This document shows, piece after piece, positions 6,627-27,645 of a stretch of DNA of 64,000 nt. Made by a program: the position numbers and the translations under genes. Below the pieces are notes generated by a model, which made no database searches, was not told where the DNA came from, and was given only the letters and a program-made list of their open reading frames with translations. Origin of the DNA: an uncultured Bacillales bacterium (GTDB lineage Bacteria; Bacillota_I; Bacilli_A; RFN20; CAG-449); the NCBI GenBank assembly GCA_946641515.1, contig CAMPBT010000003.1, forward strand, positions 140,120 to 204,119, read 5' to 3'. Within the stretch, counting starts at the first letter, position 1. Each line of letters opens with the position of its first letter.

Positions 6627-6699
6627 TCTGGCGCCTCCTTTTCTTATTTTTTTGTTTGTTGGATTTAGCAACAATATACAGAGTTTGTATACATTATAG

Positions 6700-6755
6700 T
6701 ATTTACCTCGGCAACATTATTAAGACCCTTGTCCGTTGCTGTCTATGGTATATTG
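6700..6755 (-). promoter_or_regulatory. L10 leader (autogenous ribosomal protein leader)
   Basis: Minus strand CCATAGACAGCAAC...TTAA...GTTGCCGAGGTA matches the AGACAGC...CCGAGG pattern of L10 leaders, directly upstream of rplJ. Confidence 0.75.
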
Positions 6756-6772
6756 GAGCTTTAAAAAAGTGA

Positions 6773-20068: not shown

Positions 20069-20515
20069 CTAAAATAAGATAGAAACTAAATCTGCAATAG
20101 CTTCTAATGTCTTCGCATCTTCTTCATTAAAATTGTCATAATCATCCGAATCTAAATCAATTACTCCATAACATTCATTATTCTTAATGATAGGAATTAC
20201 AATTTCACTTCTAGATGTAGAAGAACATGCAATATGTCCTTTAAATTTATTAACATCAGGAACAAGCTGAGTAACCTTAGTATATGCAGCTTTACCGCAT
20301 ACTCCCTTATTAAAAGGAATTAAAGTACATGCCACAGATCCTTGGAAAGGACCTAAGAATAATTCATCATGCATTTCATTTGATAAATAAAACCCTGCCC
20401 AAGAAGTTCCTTTGATATTATCTTTAATAAGTGATGAGAGATTGCTTAAATTTGACACTAAAGGGAGCTTCTCATCAATTAATCCCTTTGCCATAGTAAT
20501 TAATTCATTATTCAT
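20069..20515 (-). CDS. msrC: GAF-domain free methionine-R-sulfoxide reductase (start likely ATG 20515)
   Basis: LGPFQGSVAC, KGVCGKAA, GHIACSSTSRSEIVIP: all three Cys of fRMsr are present. Confidence 0.85.
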   Translation of the reverse strand: MNNELITMAKGLIDEKLPLVSNLSNLSSLIKDNIKGTSWAGFYLSNEMHDELFLGPFQGSVACTLIPFNKGVCGKAAYTKVTQLVPDVNKFKGHIACSSTSRSEIVIPIIKNNECYGVIDLDSDDYDNFNEEDAKTLEAIADLVSILF

Positions 20516-22025
20516 CTTTTTCAAGCTCATAAATCTCTGAATATTTGTTTTCAAGATAATCACAATAATAATCAGGATTTAAATCTTCTCCTGTAACTTT
20601 CTTTATTAATTCTTTAGGTGAAAGCATTCTAGCTTCACTATAAATGTTTTTAGTTAACCAATCTTTAATGACATTGACTTTACCTTCACTTAATAATTTA
20701 TCAACATCAAGTTCTTCTTTCATCTTATGGTAGATTTGTGCAGAATAAGCATTTCCTACAGCATATGAGAAGAAATAACCAAAGCCAGTTGACCAATGTA
20801 CATCTTGTAAAATACCTTCTTTATCTGAAGGAGGGGTAATACCAAGATATTCTTTATATTTCTCATTCCAAATACGAGGCAAATCATTTACATCGATATC
20901 ATCATTATTGAAAATTAATTTTTCAATTTCATAACGAACAATAATATGTAAACAATAAGTAAGTTCATCCGCTTCTGTTCTAATTAATGAAGGTTGAACT
21001 TTATTAATTGCCTTATAAAATTCTTCTACAGATACATCTTTTAAAGTAGAAGGAATAATCTTCTTATATTTAGGGAAGATGTAATTAACAAAGTTCTTAT
21101 TCTTAGCAATGATGTTTTCAAAGAATCTGGATTGAGATTCATGAAATGCCATAGAACACGCTCCATAAACAGAAGTACCTTCATATTTCTTATTAAGGTT
21201 TTGTTCATAAATACCGTGTCCACCTTCATGAGCACAAGAATAAACATTACTAGTCCAATCATTTTCATAATAATGAGTAGTAATTCTTACATCATTATGA
21301 GTTAAGCCATTAGTAAAAGGATGTTCAGTTTCTTTAAGCATACCTCTACTAAAATCATATCCAATACTTTTAGCAGTTAACTTACCTAACTTTTCTTGTT
21401 GAGATTTATTAACTCTAGTATGTAAGAAATCAGTCCTAATATTAACTTTAGAATTCATTACTTTCTTAAGTAAAGGAACAATTCTCTTTTTTAATTTATC
21501 AAAGAAGATATCAAGTTCTTTTTCAGAAGTACCCTCTTCATACATATCTAAATAAGTATTGTAATAAGAGTTATCAACCGCTCCATAATATTTAGCAAGA
21601 ACTTTAGAATAATGAATTACTTCTTTAAAATAAGGTGCCCAAATAGAATAATCATCATTTTGTTTAGCCTCTTTCCAATAATAAGAAGATTGATTCATTA
21701 CTTTCTGAGCTTCTTTTGCAACTTGTTCAGGTACTTTACGATCTCTCTCTACATCTTTTAAATCAAGAGTTACTGCTCTTTGATATAAAGGAGGTAAAGA
21801 ATCATAATGCTTTTTCATTTCTTCTAGTAATCCTAAATATTCATTAGAAGTAGTTCTTTTAAAATATTCCATATAGAAATAATTTAAGATTTCTTCTCTT
21901 TCTTTATGAGCCTTTTTTGGAGCGTCAGTTTCATCTTCAAATCCAATAATAGATAAAGTATTTGAAATCATCTCATTAACTTTATAATACTCCCTATATT
22001 TTTTAATAAGTTCTTTAGTATTCAT
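20508..22025 (-). CDS. Carboxypeptidase, peptidase family M32
   Basis: HPF, DVRITT, HEGGH, HESQSRF, IRTEADE, GILQDVHW. Confidence 0.95.
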   Translation of the reverse strand: MNTKELIKKYREYYKVNEMISNTLSIIGFEDETDAPKKAHKEREEILNYFYMEYFKRTTSNEYLGLLEEMKKHYDSLPPLYQRAVTLDLKDVERDRKVPEQVAKEAQKVMNQSSYYWKEAKQNDDYSIWAPYFKEVIHYSKVLAKYYGAVDNSYYNTYLDMYEEGTSEKELDIFFDKLKKRIVPLLKKVMNSKVNIRTDFLHTRVNKSQQEKLGKLTAKSIGYDFSRGMLKETEHPFTNGLTHNDVRITTHYYENDWTSNVYSCAHEGGHGIYEQNLNKKYEGTSVYGACSMAFHESQSRFFENIIAKNKNFVNYIFPKYKKIIPSTLKDVSVEEFYKAINKVQPSLIRTEADELTYCLHIIVRYEIEKLIFNNDDIDVNDLPRIWNEKYKEYLGITPPSDKEGILQDVHWSTGFGYFFSYAVGNAYSAQIYHKMKEELDVDKLLSEGKVNVIKDWLTKNIYSEARMLSPKELIKKVTGEDLNPDYYCDYLENKYSEIYELEKDE

Positions 22026-22131: not shown

Positions 22132-22168
22132 AAAAAAGTTGCGCTGATAAGGAAACGGTCAGGCAACT
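22132..22168 (-). terminator. Riboswitch expression-platform terminator
   Basis: AGTTGC-CTGA...TCAG-C-GCAACT followed by TTTTTATTT. Confidence 0.6.
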
Positions 22169-22180
22169 GAAAGGAAAACT

Positions 22181-22241
22181 TTCGTAGAGGTAGATTGTGG
22201 TCTACCGTAGAGACATTGGACCGATTTCCAATATATACGAA
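22181..22241 (-). ncRNA. Purine riboswitch aptamer, guanine-type discriminator
   Basis: UUCGUA-UAU-AUUGGA-AAUCGG-UCCAAU-GUCUCUAC-GGUAGA-CCACAA-UCUACC-UC-UACGAA: P1/P2/P3 pair perfectly, J2/3 is close to the consensus GUUUCUAC, the L2 GG/L3 CC kissing bases are kept, and position 74 is C. Confidence 0.85.
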
Positions 22242-22391
22242 TATAACTTATGAGCTATCCTACTTGCATAGGACAGTGATTAATATATTACATATCTAAA
22301 AAGAAAAAAGAAACACTTTTTTGAAAATTTTTGAATTTTCTTTCAAATGTTTCTTTTTGTATCAATTATTTAATTAATTTAAATACTTATT

Positions 22392-23780
22392 TTAATCGAT
22401 ATTCTCGTGTTCTTCGTCTACTTTGACTTCTGTATCTTTTTTACCAAATCCCGTAACAAAATATACTAAGATACCAAGAATTAAAGCACATGCAACTGAT
22501 GTTAATGTAACTTTACCAAATGTTAATGTAAGTCCACCGATACCTGCAATTAAGATAACTGAGACTGTGAATAAGTTTCTGCTATCACCAAGGTCTTCTT
22601 TTTGAATCATCTTTAAACCAGATACTGCGATGAATCCGTATAATGTCATACAAACACCACCCATGACACATGATGGAATTGTTGCAAGTAATGTAACGAA
22701 TGGTGCAATGAATGAGCAAACGATACATAAAATTGCTGTAGTAATAATTGTTGTAATTGAAGCGTTCTTTGAAATAGCAACACAACCTACTGATTCACCA
22801 TAAGTTGTATTTGGACATCCACCGAAGAATGCACCAGCGATTGAACCAACACCATCGCCGAGTAATGTTCTATGTAAACCTGGTTCTTCAAGTAAATCAG
22901 AACCAATGACTGATGATAAGTTTTTGTGGTCTGCAATGTGTTCTGCGAAAACTACGAATGCAACTGGAATGTAAGCAACTGCAATTGTACCAACATATCC
23001 CCATGAGAAGTTATCCCATGTTTCCTTTGAGAAGAATGCTTTTACAAATGTGAAGTCTGGATACCACTGCATTGAAGCAAATTTTGTGAAATCAATAACT
23101 TTTAATGCATCGTTATTTGCTAAATAACCAATACCTGTGAAGATAGCAGCGACTGCATAGCCTGCTAAGATACCTAAGATGAAAGGAATCATCTTAACAA
23201 ATTTTTTGCCATATACTGAACAAGCAACTACTGTAAATAATGTAACTAAGCCACAGAATAATGCTAAGAATTTATTTGTTGTAACAACACCTGCTGCATC
23301 TTTAAATGAGCCTGATAATAAATCTCCAACAGCATTTCCTGCTAAGCTTAAGCCAATGATTGCAACTGTAGGGCCAATTACAACTGCTGGCATAATTTTG
23401 TTGATCCATCCTGTACCACAGAATTTAACAACTAATGCGATTGCAACATATACTAAACCTGCAAAGAATGCACCTAAAATTAAACCTAAGTAACCAAGTG
23501 AAGCAGAAGTAGCACCTGCGAATGCTGCAAGCATTGAACCAATGAATGCGAATGAAGAACCTAAGAAGACTGGGCTCTTAAATTTTGTGAATAGTAAATA
23601 TACTATTGTACCAACACCTGCACCGAATAATGCTGCAGACTGGCTCATGCCGTTACCAATAATTGCAGGAACAGCGATTGTTGCTGCTAAAATAGCAAGC
23701 ATTTGTTGGAAAGCAAAGATTAATGTTTTTCCAACTGATGGTCTATCTGATACACCATAAATTAGACCGTTCTTTTCCAT
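22392..23780 (-). CDS. uraA: NCS2 family nucleobase permease, UraA/PyrP-like
   Basis: SPVFLGSSFAF, AEHIADH, PNTTYGESVG, GGVCMTLYGFIAVSG. Confidence 0.85.
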   Translation of the reverse strand: MEKNGLIYGVSDRPSVGKTLIFAFQQMLAILAATIAVPAIIGNGMSQSAALFGAGVGTIVYLLFTKFKSPVFLGSSFAFIGSMLAAFAGATSASLGYLGLILGAFFAGLVYVAIALVVKFCGTGWINKIMPAVVIGPTVAIIGLSLAGNAVGDLLSGSFKDAAGVVTTNKFLALFCGLVTLFTVVACSVYGKKFVKMIPFILGILAGYAVAAIFTGIGYLANNDALKVIDFTKFASMQWYPDFTFVKAFFSKETWDNFSWGYVGTIAVAYIPVAFVVFAEHIADHKNLSSVIGSDLLEEPGLHRTLLGDGVGSIAGAFFGGCPNTTYGESVGCVAISKNASITTIITTAILCIVCSFIAPFVTLLATIPSCVMGGVCMTLYGFIAVSGLKMIQKEDLGDSRNLFTVSVILIAGIGGLTLTFGKVTLTSVACALILGILVYFVTGFGKKDTEVKVDEEHENID

Positions 23781-23803
23781 AAGTTTTCCTCCCCTTCTAT
23801 TTC

Positions 23804-23836
23804 AAAAAAAAGGATTTGGCACTAATACCAAATCCT
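23804..23836 (-). terminator. Attenuator terminator upstream of uraA
   Basis: AGGATTTGGTA-TTAG-TGCCAAATCCT followed by T7, about 24 nt before the uraA start. Confidence 0.9.
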
Positions 23837-23942
23837 AAAAAGCAAAAATAGAAAATAAAGTCTTTTTTGAACGAGAAACAAGAGGACAAAAACCCCTTGA
23901 GCTTTCCTTATACTCAATTGGACGAATGTTTTTATTAACCAT
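23835..23942 (-). CDS. Putative 35-aa leader peptide MVNKNIRPIEYKESSRGFCPLVSRSKKTLFSIFAF
   Basis: GGGAG RBS 6 nt before ATG 23942; open frame to TAG at 23835-23837, which overlaps the terminator 5' arm. Confidence 0.6.
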   Translation of the reverse strand: MVNKNIRPIEYKESSRGFCPLVSRSKKTLFSIFAF

Positions 23943-24009
23943 ATTTGTCTCCCAATTCCTGTTTTTTATAATAACAAATATTAGGTAATTCGTGAAGATG
24001 GTTTTTTTA

Positions 24010-24023
24010 TGAAATCGGTTACA
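24010..24023. promoter_or_regulatory. cre (CcpA box)
   Basis: TGAAATCGGTTACA matches TGWAANCGNTNWCA exactly; upstream of the uraA leader. Confidence 0.55.
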
Positions 24024-24113
24024 TTCAAAGTCTTAAGTATAACTTAAGAAATTTTAAAAAATTATATATTTAATAAAATAAAAAGTTATCATAAGATAGC
24101 CTTCAAATAAAAT

Positions 24114-24707
24114 TTATCTTAGTTTATTTACTAAAGGTATAATTGTTTCTTCTTTTTGTTCTTCCGTTAAAACATGCTTCGCGCCTTCAATTAAAGTAAC
24201 ATGATCTTCCCCAAACTTTTCTAAAACAATATCTTTTGTAGTAGTACAAATTTCATCCTTAGTTCCTACAATAATATAAGTATTCTTTAAAGTCATAGGA
24301 TGAATATTACTTAATGCATCTTTAGCAAATCTAGAAACAGATTCGACAAAATAATCATCAATTGAGAAATCTTTTTCTTTAGGGTTTTGTCTAGGTGAAG
24401 AAAACTTATGTCTACCTAAAGCGACAGTTTTGCCAAATACAGAAGAAGGATCAACACATGGGTTAACTAAGATTCTTCTAACTGATTTATTGTTTAAACA
24501 TAATGCATATAATCCTCCAAGAGAATTACCTACAACTAAATCAATACCATAATTATCCACAATATAGTTGATGATATAGATAGCTTCAGAACAATTAACA
24601 GGAACATCAAAAGTGATGACTTCATCATTTTCTAAGTTCTTTTTGAGAACTTTATAGACACCATTTTCTCCTGCAGAAGCAAATCCATGGATATTAAGAA
24701 TTTTCAT
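24114..24707 (-). CDS. YqiA/YcfP-like alpha/beta hydrolase (start likely ATG 24707)
   Basis: ILNIHGFAS, nucleophile elbow GNSLGG, LVNP, GTKDE, C-terminal His. Confidence 0.85.
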   Translation of the reverse strand: MKILNIHGFASAGENGVYKVLKKNLENDEVITFDVPVNCSEAIYIINYIVDNYGIDLVVGNSLGGLYALCLNNKSVRRILVNPCVDPSSVFGKTVALGRHKFSSPRQNPKEKDFSIDDYFVESVSRFAKDALSNIHPMTLKNTYIIVGTKDEICTTTKDIVLEKFGEDHVTLIEGAKHVLTEEQKEETIIPLVNKLR

Positions 24708-25340: not shown

Positions 25341-25892
25341 ATGGAAAAAGTTATTCTTTGTGAAGAAGAAATTAAAAGCATCACTAGTCTAATTGGCCAG
25401 CAGCTTTCAACTCGCTTCAGATTCAATGACTCTCCACCAATTATCATTGGCCTTATCGAAGATTCACTTCCATTTACAACAGATTTAGTAAATGAAATGA
25501 ATATTCCCTTATTACAAGATTACATCCAGATCGGTTCTATCAACGGTAGTAAGCATTTAGGAACTATGCTAAAGAAAGACGTTTCATTAGACATCTACAA
25601 GAAAGATGTAGTTATCGTCGCTACAGTCGTTGATACAGGTATTCAGATGCAATATTTATCAGATTACCTCATGAACAAATATAAGCCTACATCAATTACA
25701 ACAGTAGCGTTAATTGATAAAAAGGCTAACCGCAAAGTTCCTTTTAATCTAGATTATTACGGCAAAGAAATAAATACCGACTCTTTCTTAGTAGGCTATG
25801 GACTAGATTACCGTGGCTTTGGTCGTAATAGTAAAATCGTGTACATCCCAACTTCAGCCGAAATAAAGTCATGGGATTCTTACACTAATTAA
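25341..25892 (+). CDS. Hypoxanthine phosphoribosyltransferase homologue with degenerate PRPP-binding motifs
   Basis: EKVILCEEEI, LIDK...RK and FLVGYGLDY align to HPRT; ED is replaced by AT, LKG by IED, SY by SI. Confidence 0.8.
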   Translation: MEKVILCEEEIKSITSLIGQQLSTRFRFNDSPPIIIGLIEDSLPFTTDLVNEMNIPLLQDYIQIGSINGSKHLGTMLKKDVSLDIYKKDVVIVATVVDTGIQMQYLSDYLMNKYKPTSITTVALIDKKANRKVPFNLDYYGKEINTDSFLVGYGLDYRGFGRNSKIVYIPTSAEIKSWDSYTN

Positions 25893-27277: not shown

Positions 27278-27505
27278 AAATAAAAAACGCCCTTAATATA
27301 AGGACGAAATATTCGTGGTACCACCTTATTTTATGAAAGTAATAATACTTTCACCTCATTAGATATTTTTACGCGTATCAAGCGTCTTCCCTACTATTAA
27401 TTCAAGAAGCTCTCCAGAACGTATTCATTTATTTACCACACTGTTTTTCATCAACCAACAGCTTTCTAAAGAGAATAAATAAACTACTCTTTTCCTTCAA
27501 CGATT
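27278..27505 (-). promoter_or_regulatory. T-box riboswitch with Tyr specifier
   Basis: T-box AAGGTGGTACCACG (27314-27327), specifier GAA-TAC-GTT (TAC at 27421-27423), AG box/GCTG...TGA stem I, terminator ending in a T run. Confidence 0.92.
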
Positions 27506-27645
27506 TATAAATTTTACAAGGTCATTATATATGGATAAGGATATTAAAACAAGTAACAAAACAAACTATTTTTATTTTTAGTTAGCAACTGCTAACCATT
27601 TTATTTAAATTATGTTATTATAATTTGGTTGAAAGGAGCATCTAT

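What the first reader, a model, noticed from the sequence alone, without database searches (positions are those of the whole stretch)
23800..23955. Leader-peptide, U-tract attenuator on uraA: a PyrR-independent UTP-sensing switch
Directly seen: a GGGAG RBS, a 35-codon ORF, 16 U among the 21 nt of its last seven sense codons (TTA TTT TCT ATT TTT GCT TTT), and a UAG stop whose AG are the first two bases of an 11-bp terminator stem with a U7 tail just before the uraA RBS. I found no PyrR binding loop (AGUCC.GUGAGG). Established knowledge: E. coli pyrBI and rph-pyrE use this layout, where RNAP stalls on U tracts at low UTP and the trailing ribosome blocks the terminator, whereas Firmicutes normally use PyrR, and B. 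subtilis RNAP outruns its ribosomes. Inference: this lineage may use coupling-dependent pyrimidine attenuation, which would be unexpected for Bacilli.
Basis: partly seen in the sequence, partly recalled or inferred. Interest (0 to 1): 0.8.

Follow-up and report, generated by a model that had tools for sequence, protein, structure and literature searches.

The report
Leader-peptide attenuator before uracil permease
A short translated reading frame with a very U-rich end stops exactly on a transcription terminator in front of a uracil-uptake gene; the same design replaces the usual PyrR RNA switch in several related gut bacteria, so it is probably a protein-free sensor of pyrimidine nucleotide supply like the E. 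coli pyrBI/pyrE attenuators.

Summary
A promoter (TTCACG-17-TGtTATTAT) is followed by a GGGAG Shine-Dalgarno and a 35-codon ORF (23942..23835). Its last 21 nt hold 16 U. Its UAG stop overlaps by two bases an 11-bp terminator with a U7 tail, 30 nt before an NCS2 uracil-type permease gene.

No PyrR hairpin is present. Rfam finds none, and a custom model that detects PyrR sites in 77 of 171 orthologous loci finds none in the window. The leader shows no antiterminator and no aptamer-like structure.

The layout recurs upstream of orthologous permeases in at least six sequence-unrelated versions, and 10 of those loci are uraA-upp operons. Their relatives on the permease tree lie behind pyrR or carry a PyrR site. 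Among 45 non-redundant terminator-bearing leaders, all 8 with a U-rich tract have an SD-led ORF ending at the terminator, against 4 of 37 others and 0 of 14 PyrR attenuators (Fisher p = 2e-6).

The best reading is a ribosome-operated attenuator, very likely, that senses UTP through RNA polymerase speed, which is inferred only. I found no published description. It is a new variant of a known kind.

The parts
23968..23996 (-). Promoter: -35 TTCACG (23996-23991), 17-nt spacer, extended -10 TGt-TATTAT (TG 23976-23975, hexamer 23973-23968). The inferred start of transcription is near 23961.
   Evidence: Consensus scan. In L161 and L162 the same hexamers sit at the same spacing while the spacer sequence varies. 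The transcription start is inferred, not mapped.
23949..23953 (-). Shine-Dalgarno GGGAG of the leader ORF, 6 nt before its ATG
   Evidence: Read from the sequence. An SD-like GGGA is kept in L161 and L162.
23835..23942 (-). Leader ORF: 35 codons plus UAG (MVNKNIRPIEYKESSRGFCPLVSRSKKTLFSIFAF*)
   Evidence: It is conserved as an ORF in L161 and L162, with a net 3-nt length difference. JGI gene calling lists it as a 35-aa gene on identical contigs. It has no Pfam match.
23879..23899 (-). Small G-rich hairpin (CAAGGGG-UUUUUGU-CCUCUUG) followed by UUUCUCGUUC, inside the leader ORF. Candidate RNA polymerase pause hairpin that could synchronise the ribosome with the polymerase.
   Evidence: Flagged as terminator-like. 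A G-rich hairpin followed by a pyrimidine stretch is kept in L161, L162, L167 and L170 although the flanks have diverged. The function is inferred only.
23838..23862 (-). U-rich tract at the 3' end of the leader ORF (ACUUUAUUUUCUAUUUUUGCUUUUU; 18 U in the last 30 nt before the stem). Proposed UTP-sensitive slow zone for RNA polymerase.
   Evidence: Averaged over 10 lineages, U content rises from 0.31 to 0.64 and G falls to 0.02-0.10 towards the terminator.
23804..23836 (-). Intrinsic terminator (attenuator): 11-bp stem 23836-23826 / 23821-23811, loop UUAG, U7 tail 23810-23804. The stem starts with the A and G of the leader stop codon.
   Evidence: hairpin -13.6 kcal/mol. The stem is kept through compensatory changes in L162.
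23788..23797 (-). Shine-Dalgarno region of uraA (GAAGGGGAGG). In the read-through RNA it can pair with the U-rich tract.
   Evidence: Minimum-free-energy fold. The pairing is not better than composition-matched shuffles (z = -1.3), so this is only a possible second layer.
22392..23780 (-). NCS2-family uracil-type permease gene (462 aa), the regulated gene
   Evidence: Best NCBIfam match is uracil permease, but below its cut-off. Orthologs lie in pyrR-uraA operons or uraA-upp operons.

Best explanation
This is a ribosome-operated transcription attenuator that controls a uracil permease gene. It works like the E. coli pyrBI and rph-pyrE attenuators but is not related to them by sequence.

Proposed steps:
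1. Transcription starts about 20 nt before a 35-codon leader ORF, which has its own Shine-Dalgarno.
2. RNA polymerase must then copy a very U-rich stretch, the last 25 nt of the ORF, and immediately afterwards a terminator hairpin with a U7 tail.
3. When UTP is plentiful, the polymerase runs ahead of the first ribosome. The hairpin folds and transcription stops 30 nt before uraA.
4. When UTP is scarce, the polymerase dawdles in the U tract. It may first have been held at a conserved small hairpin inside the ORF.
5. The ribosome catches up and reaches the UAG stop, which overlaps the first two bases of the stem. There it covers the 5' arm of the hairpin. The terminator cannot form and uraA is transcribed.

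What is shown: the anatomy, its conservation, its recurrence in place of PyrR sites, and the lack of any RNA antiterminator or aptamer.

What is inferred: that the ORF is translated, that the ribosome masks the hairpin, and that UTP is the signal.
For: 1. Anatomy as described.

2. Conservation.
- Relatives with 80%-identical permeases (L161, L162) keep the promoter hexamers, the SD, a 34-codon ORF (net 3-nt indel), the U tract, the UAG/stem overlap and the stem, the last through compensatory changes.
- Strains of the same species show 0-1 change in the 233-nt leader against 3-8 in the gene.

3. Recurrence. The same layout, with different sequences, is found in L167, L170, L163, L001/L132, L019/L098/L101/L110, L036 and L077. 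The ORFs have 22-37 codons. The stop lies 1 nt before the stem in 8 of 12 loci; in the others it lies 18 nt upstream (L001), 9 nt (L163), 3 nt (L167) or in the hairpin loop (L098).

4. Statistics with a set chosen without regard to ORFs. Of 45 non-redundant terminator-bearing leaders, 8 of 8 with at least 55% U before the stem have an SD-ATG ORF of at least 18 codons ending at the terminator. This compares with 4 of 37 others and 0 of 14 PyrR-site attenuators (Fisher p = 2.3e-6; U content Mann-Whitney p = 2.4e-6). The per-locus chance in composition-preserving shuffles is 0.004-0.07 where an SD precedes the ATG.

5. The signal should be pyrimidine supply.
- Orthologs sit directly behind pyrR (NCBIfam PyrR above cut-off; 60 loci).
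- Others carry a PyrR hairpin plus terminator (19 loci).
- Ten leader-ORF loci are uraA-upp operons.
- On the permease tree the leader-ORF type needs 3-6 changes and is interleaved with PyrR-type relatives.

6. No alternative sensor.
- No Rfam hit in the leader at E<=10.
- No PyrR hairpin in the whole window or in 13 leader-ORF loci with a custom model that finds held-out positives at 27-44 bits.
- The ORF body is no more structured than shuffles (z = -0.3 to +0.2).
- No antiterminator pairing with either terminator arm (z between -1.9 and +1.3).

7. Experimental precedent for the geometry. In E. coli a terminator a few bases after a stop codon is almost fully repressed by the ribosome, and repression is lost beyond about 27 nt (PMC4824070).
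Against: - There is no direct evidence that the ORF is translated or that read-through responds to UTP or uracil.
- Metatranscriptome contigs cover 23789-23949, but coverage of the organism is sparse and random, so they say nothing about attenuation.
It is only absent from the 64-kb window.
- Some lineages have only moderate U content before the stem (L110 0.37, L167 0.43, L019 0.47), and L167 lacks a clear SD.
- Within the window's clade a peptide or nucleotide block (GGGGUUUUUGYCCUCUU = G-F-C-P-L) and the terminator loop (YYAGUGYC) are conserved beyond what the simple model needs. A further factor may therefore act.
- Low UTP also slows the polymerase on the terminator's own U tail, which by itself favours termination. 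The model works only if the ribosome really catches up.
- In B. subtilis, polymerase is reported to outrun ribosomes (own knowledge).
Confidence: 0.55

Rival explanations
1. It is a ribosome-operated attenuator, but the signal is not UTP. Read-through would depend on ribosome behaviour. One version is stalling at the Phe, Leu or Ser codons that a U-rich tract necessarily encodes, reporting aminoacyl-tRNA supply or general translation capacity. Another is a nascent-peptide arrest triggered by a small molecule such as uracil.
For: The ORF and terminator geometry supports any ribosome-dependent model. The leader ends are rich in Phe codons: 3 of the last 8 codons in the window, and 3-5 in L036, L077, L163 and L167. 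The window's clade conserves the peptide blocks GFCPL and SKKTLFSIF. Known Bacilli leader-peptide attenuators work by ribosome stalling (PMC4191407, PMC6851288).
Against: The regulated genes are uracil uptake and salvage genes, and their orthologs are under PyrR, so an amino-acid signal makes no physiological sense. There is no antiterminator for a stalled ribosome to favour. Peptide sequences are unrelated between lineages, while U-richness and G depletion are shared, which argues against a specific arrest peptide.
Confidence: 0.13
2. The leader is an RNA element read by a trans-acting factor or a ligand, for example a divergent PyrR-like or other RNA-binding protein. The factor would bind the conserved terminator loop or the G-rich hairpin, or block the leader SD as proposed for Thermus PyrR. 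The ORF would be incidental or only auxiliary.
For: In the window's clade the terminator loop YYAGUGYC and the block GGGGUUUUUGYCC are conserved even in L167 and L170, where the flanks have diverged. Whether pyrR is present elsewhere in the genome is unknown.
Against: No PyrR hairpin is found by two models. No Rfam family matches, and neither significant structure nor an alternative pairing is seen. The conserved blocks are not shared with the other lineages that have the same layout. The association of an SD-led ORF with the terminator is far beyond chance and is absent from true PyrR attenuators. The HPRT-like gene is not next to the leader in L161 or L162.
Confidence: 0.1
3. There is no regulation. 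The 35-codon ORF is an independent small-protein gene with its own terminator, or a chance ORF, and uraA is expressed by constitutive read-through or from an unrecognised promoter.
For: The ORF is called as a gene by one annotation pipeline. An RNA contig spans the terminator. The per-locus chance of such an ORF is not negligible at 3-7%.
Against: Only 23-86 nt, mostly U tail and SD, separate the terminator from uraA, and no promoter is found there. Peptides are unrelated between lineages and match no family. The layout recurs specifically at this gene, in place of PyrR attenuators. It is unique among the 35 terminators of the window.
Confidence: 0.07

Closest known systems
E. coli / Salmonella pyrBI attenuator (pyrL leader peptide), UTP-sensitive and translation-coupled. 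Described from my own knowledge (Turnbough and Switzer review; Roland et al. 1988 as cited in PMC4824070).
   Same: A promoter-proximal SD-led leader ORF, a U-rich stretch inside it just before an intrinsic terminator that precedes the structural gene, and no RNA antiterminator. The ribosome itself is the antiterminator. The target is a pyrimidine-metabolism gene.
   Different: There is no sequence relationship. The regulated gene is a uracil permease (uraA, or uraA-upp in relatives), not aspartate transcarbamoylase. The leader has 35 codons and stops on the first bases of the stem, whereas the pyrL ORF runs through the attenuator (as L098 and L170 do here). The host is an uncultured Bacilli-type Firmicute, not an enterobacterium.
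E. coli rph-pyrE attenuator (own knowledge)
   Same: An upstream ORF ends a few nucleotides before or at the terminator hairpin, so a ribosome at the stop codon masks the 5' arm. A U-rich region precedes it. The target is a pyrimidine gene.
   Different: There the upstream ORF is a full-length gene (rph). Here it is a dedicated 35-codon mini-ORF with its own promoter.
PyrR-mediated attenuation of pyrP / pyr operons in Firmicutes (Rfam RF00515)
   Same: It occupies the same position (the leader of the uracil permease gene), has the same output (an intrinsic terminator before the gene) and presumably responds to the same physiological signal. Orthologs of this permease use it.
   Different: There is no PyrR-binding hairpin and no antiterminator here. 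A translated ORF is present instead, and such an ORF is absent from all 14 PyrR attenuators examined.
Ribosome-mediated transcription attenuators of Bacilli that sense antibiotics (bmrB-bmrCD PMC4191407; yxjB/tlrB with NusG-dependent pausing PMC6851288; vmlR PMC9226507)
   Same: A leader peptide plus an intrinsic terminator in a Firmicute. Polymerase pausing is needed so that the ribosome can act on the nascent leader.
   Different: Those respond to drug-stalled ribosomes and use alternative RNA hairpins. Here no alternative hairpin exists, and the proposed variable is polymerase speed on a U tract.

Membership tests
pyrBI/pyrE-type UTP-sensitive, translation-coupled attenuators (a mechanistic class, not a homology family) | Leader ORF with its own ribosome-binding site close to the transcription start | tested here: met
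   GGGAG lies 6 nt before the ATG, about 20 nt after the inferred start. SD-ATG is present in 11 of 12 related leaders. Translation itself is not shown.
pyrBI/pyrE-type UTP-sensitive, translation-coupled attenuators (a mechanistic class, not a homology family) | U-rich tract in the transcript immediately upstream of the terminator | tested here: met
   16 U in the last 21 nt of the ORF. Such density occurs at 9 places in 128 kb. The mean U content before the stem is 0.57 in leader-ORF loci against 0.25-0.36 in other leaders, and it rises towards the stem.
pyrBI/pyrE-type UTP-sensitive, translation-coupled attenuators (a mechanistic class, not a homology family) | Intrinsic terminator just before the structural gene, with the leader ORF ending at or within it so that a ribosome can mask the hairpin | tested here: met
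   The stop overlaps the stem by 2 nt, and the terminator ends 30 nt before uraA. In relatives the stop lies from -18 to +15 relative to the stem start, and at -1 in 8 of 12. The geometry lies within the range that represses terminators in E. coli (PMC4824070).
pyrBI/pyrE-type UTP-sensitive, translation-coupled attenuators (a mechanistic class, not a homology family) | No RNA antiterminator; the ribosome is the only antiterminator | tested here: met
   The best duplexes of either terminator arm with the upstream leader are no better than shuffles (z between -1.9 and +1.3 in 12 loci).
pyrBI/pyrE-type UTP-sensitive, translation-coupled attenuators (a mechanistic class, not a homology family) | Read-through rises at low UTP and needs leader translation | not testable with these tools
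   This needs reporter or in vitro assays. The RNA-seq data available are too sparse.
PyrR-dependent attenuators (RF00515) | PyrR-binding hairpin in the leader | tested here: not met
   There is no Rfam hit at E<=10 in 23600-24200. The custom model R1 (built) finds 77 of 171 ortholog loci, including held-out positives. Over the whole window with filters off it finds nothing better than 13.4 bits, and nothing in the leader.
PyrR-dependent attenuators (RF00515) | Antiterminator that competes with the terminator | tested here: not met
PyrR-dependent attenuators (RF00515) | pyrR gene in the genome | not testable with these tools
There is no PyrR homolog in the 64-kb window by tblastn at E<=1.
Classical amino-acid leader-peptide attenuators (trp, his, phe, leu type) | Run of codons for the pathway's own amino acid, plus alternative 2:3 antiterminator and 3:4 terminator hairpins | tested here: not met
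   Phe codons are frequent, but the operon is for uracil uptake and salvage. No antiterminator is present.
Riboswitches / structured cis-regulatory RNAs | Conserved, unusually stable aptamer fold upstream of the expression platform | tested here: not met
   The ORF body folds no better than shuffles in the window, L161 and L162 (z = -0.31, +0.16, -0.19). No Rfam family matches.
UraA/PyrP uracil permeases (NCS2) | Match to the uracil permease equivalog above its cut-off; pyrimidine gene context | tested here: inconclusive
   The best NCBIfam hit is uracil permease, but at 268.6 bits against a cut-off of 477, and TIGR00801 scores 266 against 291.8. The context of orthologs (pyrR-uraA, uraA-upp) supports uracil.

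The most novel reading that the evidence does not exclude
A repressor-free pyrimidine sensor, built only from a race between RNA polymerase on a U tract and the first ribosome on a mini-ORF, has arisen several times in uncultured gut Bacilli and Clostridia. It has displaced PyrR at the uracil uptake and salvage genes (uraA, uraA-upp). If true, functional transcription-translation coupling can be set up locally by programmed pausing. The conserved hairpin-plus-U element inside the ORF would be the synchroniser, even in Firmicutes, where polymerase is thought to outrun ribosomes.
Probability: 0.4. Interest if true: 0.75.

Novelty: new variant of a known kind. Interest (0 to 1): 0.62.

Why it matters
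Pyrimidine control in Firmicutes is textbook PyrR territory. UTP-sensing through coupled transcription and translation is known essentially from enterobacterial pyrBI and pyrE.

A convergent version at the uracil permease gene of Mollicutes-like Bacilli and Clostridia would show three things. First, this protein-free logic is easy to evolve. Second, it can replace an RNA-binding regulator at the same gene. Third, ribosome-polymerase proximity can be exploited in lineages where coupling is thought to be weak.

Practically, it flags a class of leaders that current annotation (Rfam, PyrR models) leaves blank. It also offers a compact, about 170-nt, ligand-free pyrimidine-responsive switch that is directly testable with start-codon, stop-shift and U-tract mutants.

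Tried and rejected
- **Rfam.** No family matches the leader at E<=10. At gathering threshold Rfam also misses the clostridial PyrR hairpins, so the Rfam negative alone was weak. I therefore built a custom model.
- **Riboswitch or aptamer.** Rejected, because the ORF body is not structured beyond shuffles.
- **Antiterminator of the trp or PyrR type.** Rejected.
- **U tract sequestering the uraA SD (translational coupling).** This pairing is present in the minimum-free-energy fold of the window clade. It is not better than composition-matched shuffles in any lineage, so I keep it only as a possibility.
- **RNA evidence.** Two metatranscriptome runs hold a 159-161-nt contig over 23789-23949. Coverage of the 20 kb around it consists of scattered short contigs at depth 2-4, so no statement on premature termination is possible.
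- **Plus-strand promoter-like site at 23945-23972.** There is no gene behind it. I take it as a chance match in AT-rich DNA.
- **Leader peptides against Pfam.** Nothing found.
- **Literature.** Six full-text searches found no description of a leader-peptide or U-tract attenuator at uracil permease genes in Firmicutes or Mollicutes. The Turnbough-Switzer review and Roland et al. 1988 are not held.

Full report
**What is there.** The feature lies on the minus strand. In the direction of transcription:

| Element | Coordinates | Detail |
|---|---|---|
| Promoter -35 | 23996-23991 | TTCACG, then a 17-nt spacer |
| Promoter -10 | 23973-23968 | TATTAT, preceded by TGt (extended -10) |
| Leader SD | 23953-23949 | GGGAG, 6 nt before the ATG |
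| Leader ORF | 23942-23835 | 35 sense codons plus UAG, MVNKNIRPIEYKESSRGFCPLVSRSKKTLFSIFAF* |
| U-rich end | last seven sense codons | TTA TTT TCT ATT TTT GCT TTT, 16 U in 21 nt |
| Terminator stem | 23836-23826 / 23821-23811 | 11 bp, loop UUAG; starts with the A and G of the UAG stop |
| U tail | 23810-23804 | U7 |
| uraA SD | 23797-23788 | GAAGGGGAGG |
| uraA | 23780-22392 | 462-aa NCS2 permease |

The best NCBIfam match of the permease is uracil permease, below the curated cut-off.

**Is it more than chance?**
- A 21-nt stretch with at least 16 T occurs at only 9 places in both strands of the 64-kb window.
- Of 35 terminator-like sites in the window, this is the only one on which an SD-led ORF of 12-60 codons ends with a gene start within 130 nt.
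- In shuffles that keep composition in 30-nt blocks, so that the stop-poor U tract is respected, an SD-ATG ORF of at least 18 codons ending between 20 nt upstream of the stem and the end of the hairpin appears in 4% of trials.

**What it is not.**
- Rfam finds nothing in the leader even at E<=10.
- Rfam's PyrR model also missed obvious PyrR hairpins in related Clostridia at gathering threshold. I therefore built a covariance model from 20 such hairpins (UCUUUAA - stem - CAGAGA/CCGUGA loop - stem - CAAGA).
- That model finds 77 of 171 orthologous loci, all on the sense strand upstream of pyrR or uraA, including held-out positives at 27-44 bits.
- It finds nothing in the window with filters off (best 13.4 bits, elsewhere in the window). 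It also finds nothing in the 13 loci that share the leader-ORF layout.
- The ORF body folds no better than dinucleotide shuffles in the window and its two closest relatives (z = -0.31, +0.16, -0.19).
- Neither arm of the terminator has a better-than-chance partner upstream in any of 12 loci.
- So there is no aptamer, no PyrR site and no antiterminator. The only element placed to prevent the hairpin is a ribosome on the leader ORF.

**Relatives.** The permease has thousands of homologs. I collected 171 loci from genome, metagenome and assembly collections.

*Close relatives.* L161 and L162, with 80%-identical permeases, keep:
- the promoter hexamers with a different spacer;
- an SD;
- a 34-codon ORF (MKLKNIKIKEDRCSWGFCPLNSHSKKTLFSIFIF*, MRKKNIVIKENGCSWGFCPLNSRSKKTLFSIFIF*), whose diverged 5' half differs in length from the window by exactly 3 nt;
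- the same U tract and the same UAG/stem overlap;
- in L162, a stem maintained by compensatory changes.

Strains of the same species have 0-1 change in the 233-nt leader against 3-8 in the gene.

*More distant loci.* These have the same architecture with unrelated sequence:
- L167: 31 codons, TAA abuts the stem.
- L170: the contig is cut at the 5' end, and the ORF runs through the terminator.
- L163: 28 codons, stop 6 nt before the stem.
- L001/L132: 22 codons.
- L019, L098, L101, L110: 29-37 codons.
- L036 and L077: 31 and 33 codons.

In 8 of 12 loci the stop codon begins 1 nt before the stem. In L098 a one-base shorter T run moves the stop into the hairpin loop. Part of this exactness follows from composition, because a U run meeting the purines at the base of a stem makes a stop in one frame of three.

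*Shared composition.* Averaged over ten lineages, U rises from 0.31 to 0.64 and G falls to 0.02-0.10 over the last 50 nt before the stem.

**An unbiased test.** I took all 45 non-redundant leaders with a detectable terminator 15-140 nt before the permease start, without regard to ORFs.

| Group of leaders | With SD-ATG ORF ending at the terminator |
|---|---|
| At least 55% U in the 30 nt before the stem | 8 of 8 |
| Less than 55% U | 4 of 37 |
| True PyrR-site attenuators (a subset of the second row) | 0 of 14 |

Three of the four in the second row belong to the L019 clade. Fisher p = 2.3e-6. U content of leader-ORF loci against the rest gives Mann-Whitney p = 2.4e-6.

**What signal?**
- Sixty orthologous loci place the permease directly behind pyrR (PyrR models above cut-off for the two tested; classification).
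- Nineteen carry a PyrR hairpin and terminator directly upstream.
- In ten leader-ORF loci the permease is followed by upp, uracil phosphoribosyltransferase.
- On a tree of the permeases the leader-ORF type needs 6 changes, of which at least 3 are forced by well-supported branches. It is interleaved with PyrR-type relatives. For example, L036 is sister to L069 (PyrR site), and the window clade sits next to L165, L166 and L168 (pyrR operon).

The leader ORF therefore occupies the regulatory slot that PyrR fills in relatives, at genes whose job is uracil uptake and salvage. That makes pyrimidine nucleotide supply the expected signal. A U tract read by RNA polymerase is the obvious way to sense it without a protein.

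**Mechanism proposed.** It works as in pyrBI and rph-pyrE (own knowledge; geometry supported experimentally for E. coli by PMC4824070). With ample UTP the polymerase outruns the first ribosome, the hairpin forms and transcription ends at 23810-23804. With low UTP the polymerase is slow in 23862-23838. The ribosome closes up, reaches the UAG and covers the 5' arm, and transcription continues into uraA.

A small G-rich hairpin followed by a pyrimidine stretch lies inside the ORF (23899-23879). It is retained in L161, L162, L167 and L170 although the flanks diverge. Hairpin-plus-U elements also precede the U tract in L036, L077 and L110. It may be a pause site that holds the polymerase until a ribosome arrives, as in the trp and his leaders. 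It would also be compatible with the NusG-dependent pausing that a B. subtilis leader-peptide attenuator needs (PMC6851288). This part is inference.

**Open points.**
- Translation, UTP dependence and masking are not shown.
- RNA data exist only as scattered low-depth contigs.
The closest permease relatives carry Clostridia labels.
It is not in the window.
- The conserved peptide or nucleotide block GFCPL and the conserved terminator loop YYAGUGYC in the window clade are not explained by the simple model.

**Novelty.**
- Six full-text searches gave no description of such an attenuator at uracil permease genes in Firmicutes or Mollicutes.
- Ribosome-mediated transcription attenuation exists in Bacilli for antibiotic sensing (PMC4191407, PMC6851288, PMC9226507).
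- Earlier AI notes of this scan list the same design in other genomes. They agree with my reading, but I treated them as leads only and derived the recurrence independently from loci fetched here.

**Verdict.** This is a real and conserved leader-ORF attenuator. It most likely senses UTP and is a convergent Gram-positive counterpart of pyrBI/pyrE at uraA: a new variant of a known kind.

Noticed in passing
window 22165-22260 (-); L161 5486-5581: A purine riboswitch aptamer (Rfam, 46.5 bits) lies just downstream of uraA. It precedes a 505-aa M32 carboxypeptidase-family gene (20508-22025, Pfam), not a purine gene. A purine riboswitch also follows uraA in relative L161, but there a different gene (a GAF-domain protein) lies behind it.
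   Followed up: no
L010, L020, L039, L043, L047, L049, L080, L091, L122, L123, L152 (150-220 nt upstream of the permease start): Eleven ortholog leaders share a different hairpin motif containing GGCAGAUGCG, followed in most by a terminator. It is found neither by Rfam at gathering threshold (L039 and L043 tested) nor by my PyrR-hairpin model. It could be a divergent PyrR site or an undescribed pyrimidine-related RNA motif.
   Followed up: partly
L013, L024, L026, L034, L037, L053, L058, L065, L069 and others: Rfam's PyrR model (RF00515) at gathering threshold reports none of the PyrR-type hairpins in nine Clostridia loci that a custom model scores at 21-48 bits. PyrR sites of this clade are under-annotated.
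   Followed up: yes
window 25341-25892 (+): A 183-aa HPRT-like protein scores below the HGPRTase cut-off (112 against 150 bits) and has weak similarity to PyrR models. It is not next to the leader in relatives L161 and L162.
   Followed up: no
L019, L098, L101, L110 leader ORFs: These leader ORFs contain UCU UUA AAC/U in frame (twice in L101). U_UUA_AAC has the form of a classical -1 frameshift slippery heptamer, and CUUUAA is also the invariant 5' half of the PyrR site. It may be a remnant or a coincidence.
   Followed up: no
L006, L012 (upstream of the permease start): These permease orthologs have no leader terminator. Instead a perfect palindrome, TACAATATATTGTA, overlaps the -10 region of a TTGACA promoter. 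It looks like an operator for an unknown DNA-binding repressor.
   Followed up: no
window 23843; L174; run X12: The only polymorphism seen in the leader among strains is G>A on the mRNA strand, changing codon 34 from GCU (Ala) to ACU (Thr). The same codon is AUU in L161 and L162, so this residue is free to vary.
   Followed up: yes
window 27297-27509 (-), 6664-6766 (-): A T-box leader lies before tyrS and an L10 leader before rplJ. These are ordinary Firmicute riboregulators and serve as positive controls for the Rfam scan.
   Followed up: no
L001 (leader): In L001 the U tract of the leader ORF can pair with the leader's own SD region (GAGGAGAAAAAACC with GGGUUUCUUUUUUUC) in the minimum-free-energy fold. 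This hints at self-limiting leader translation in that lineage.
   Followed up: no
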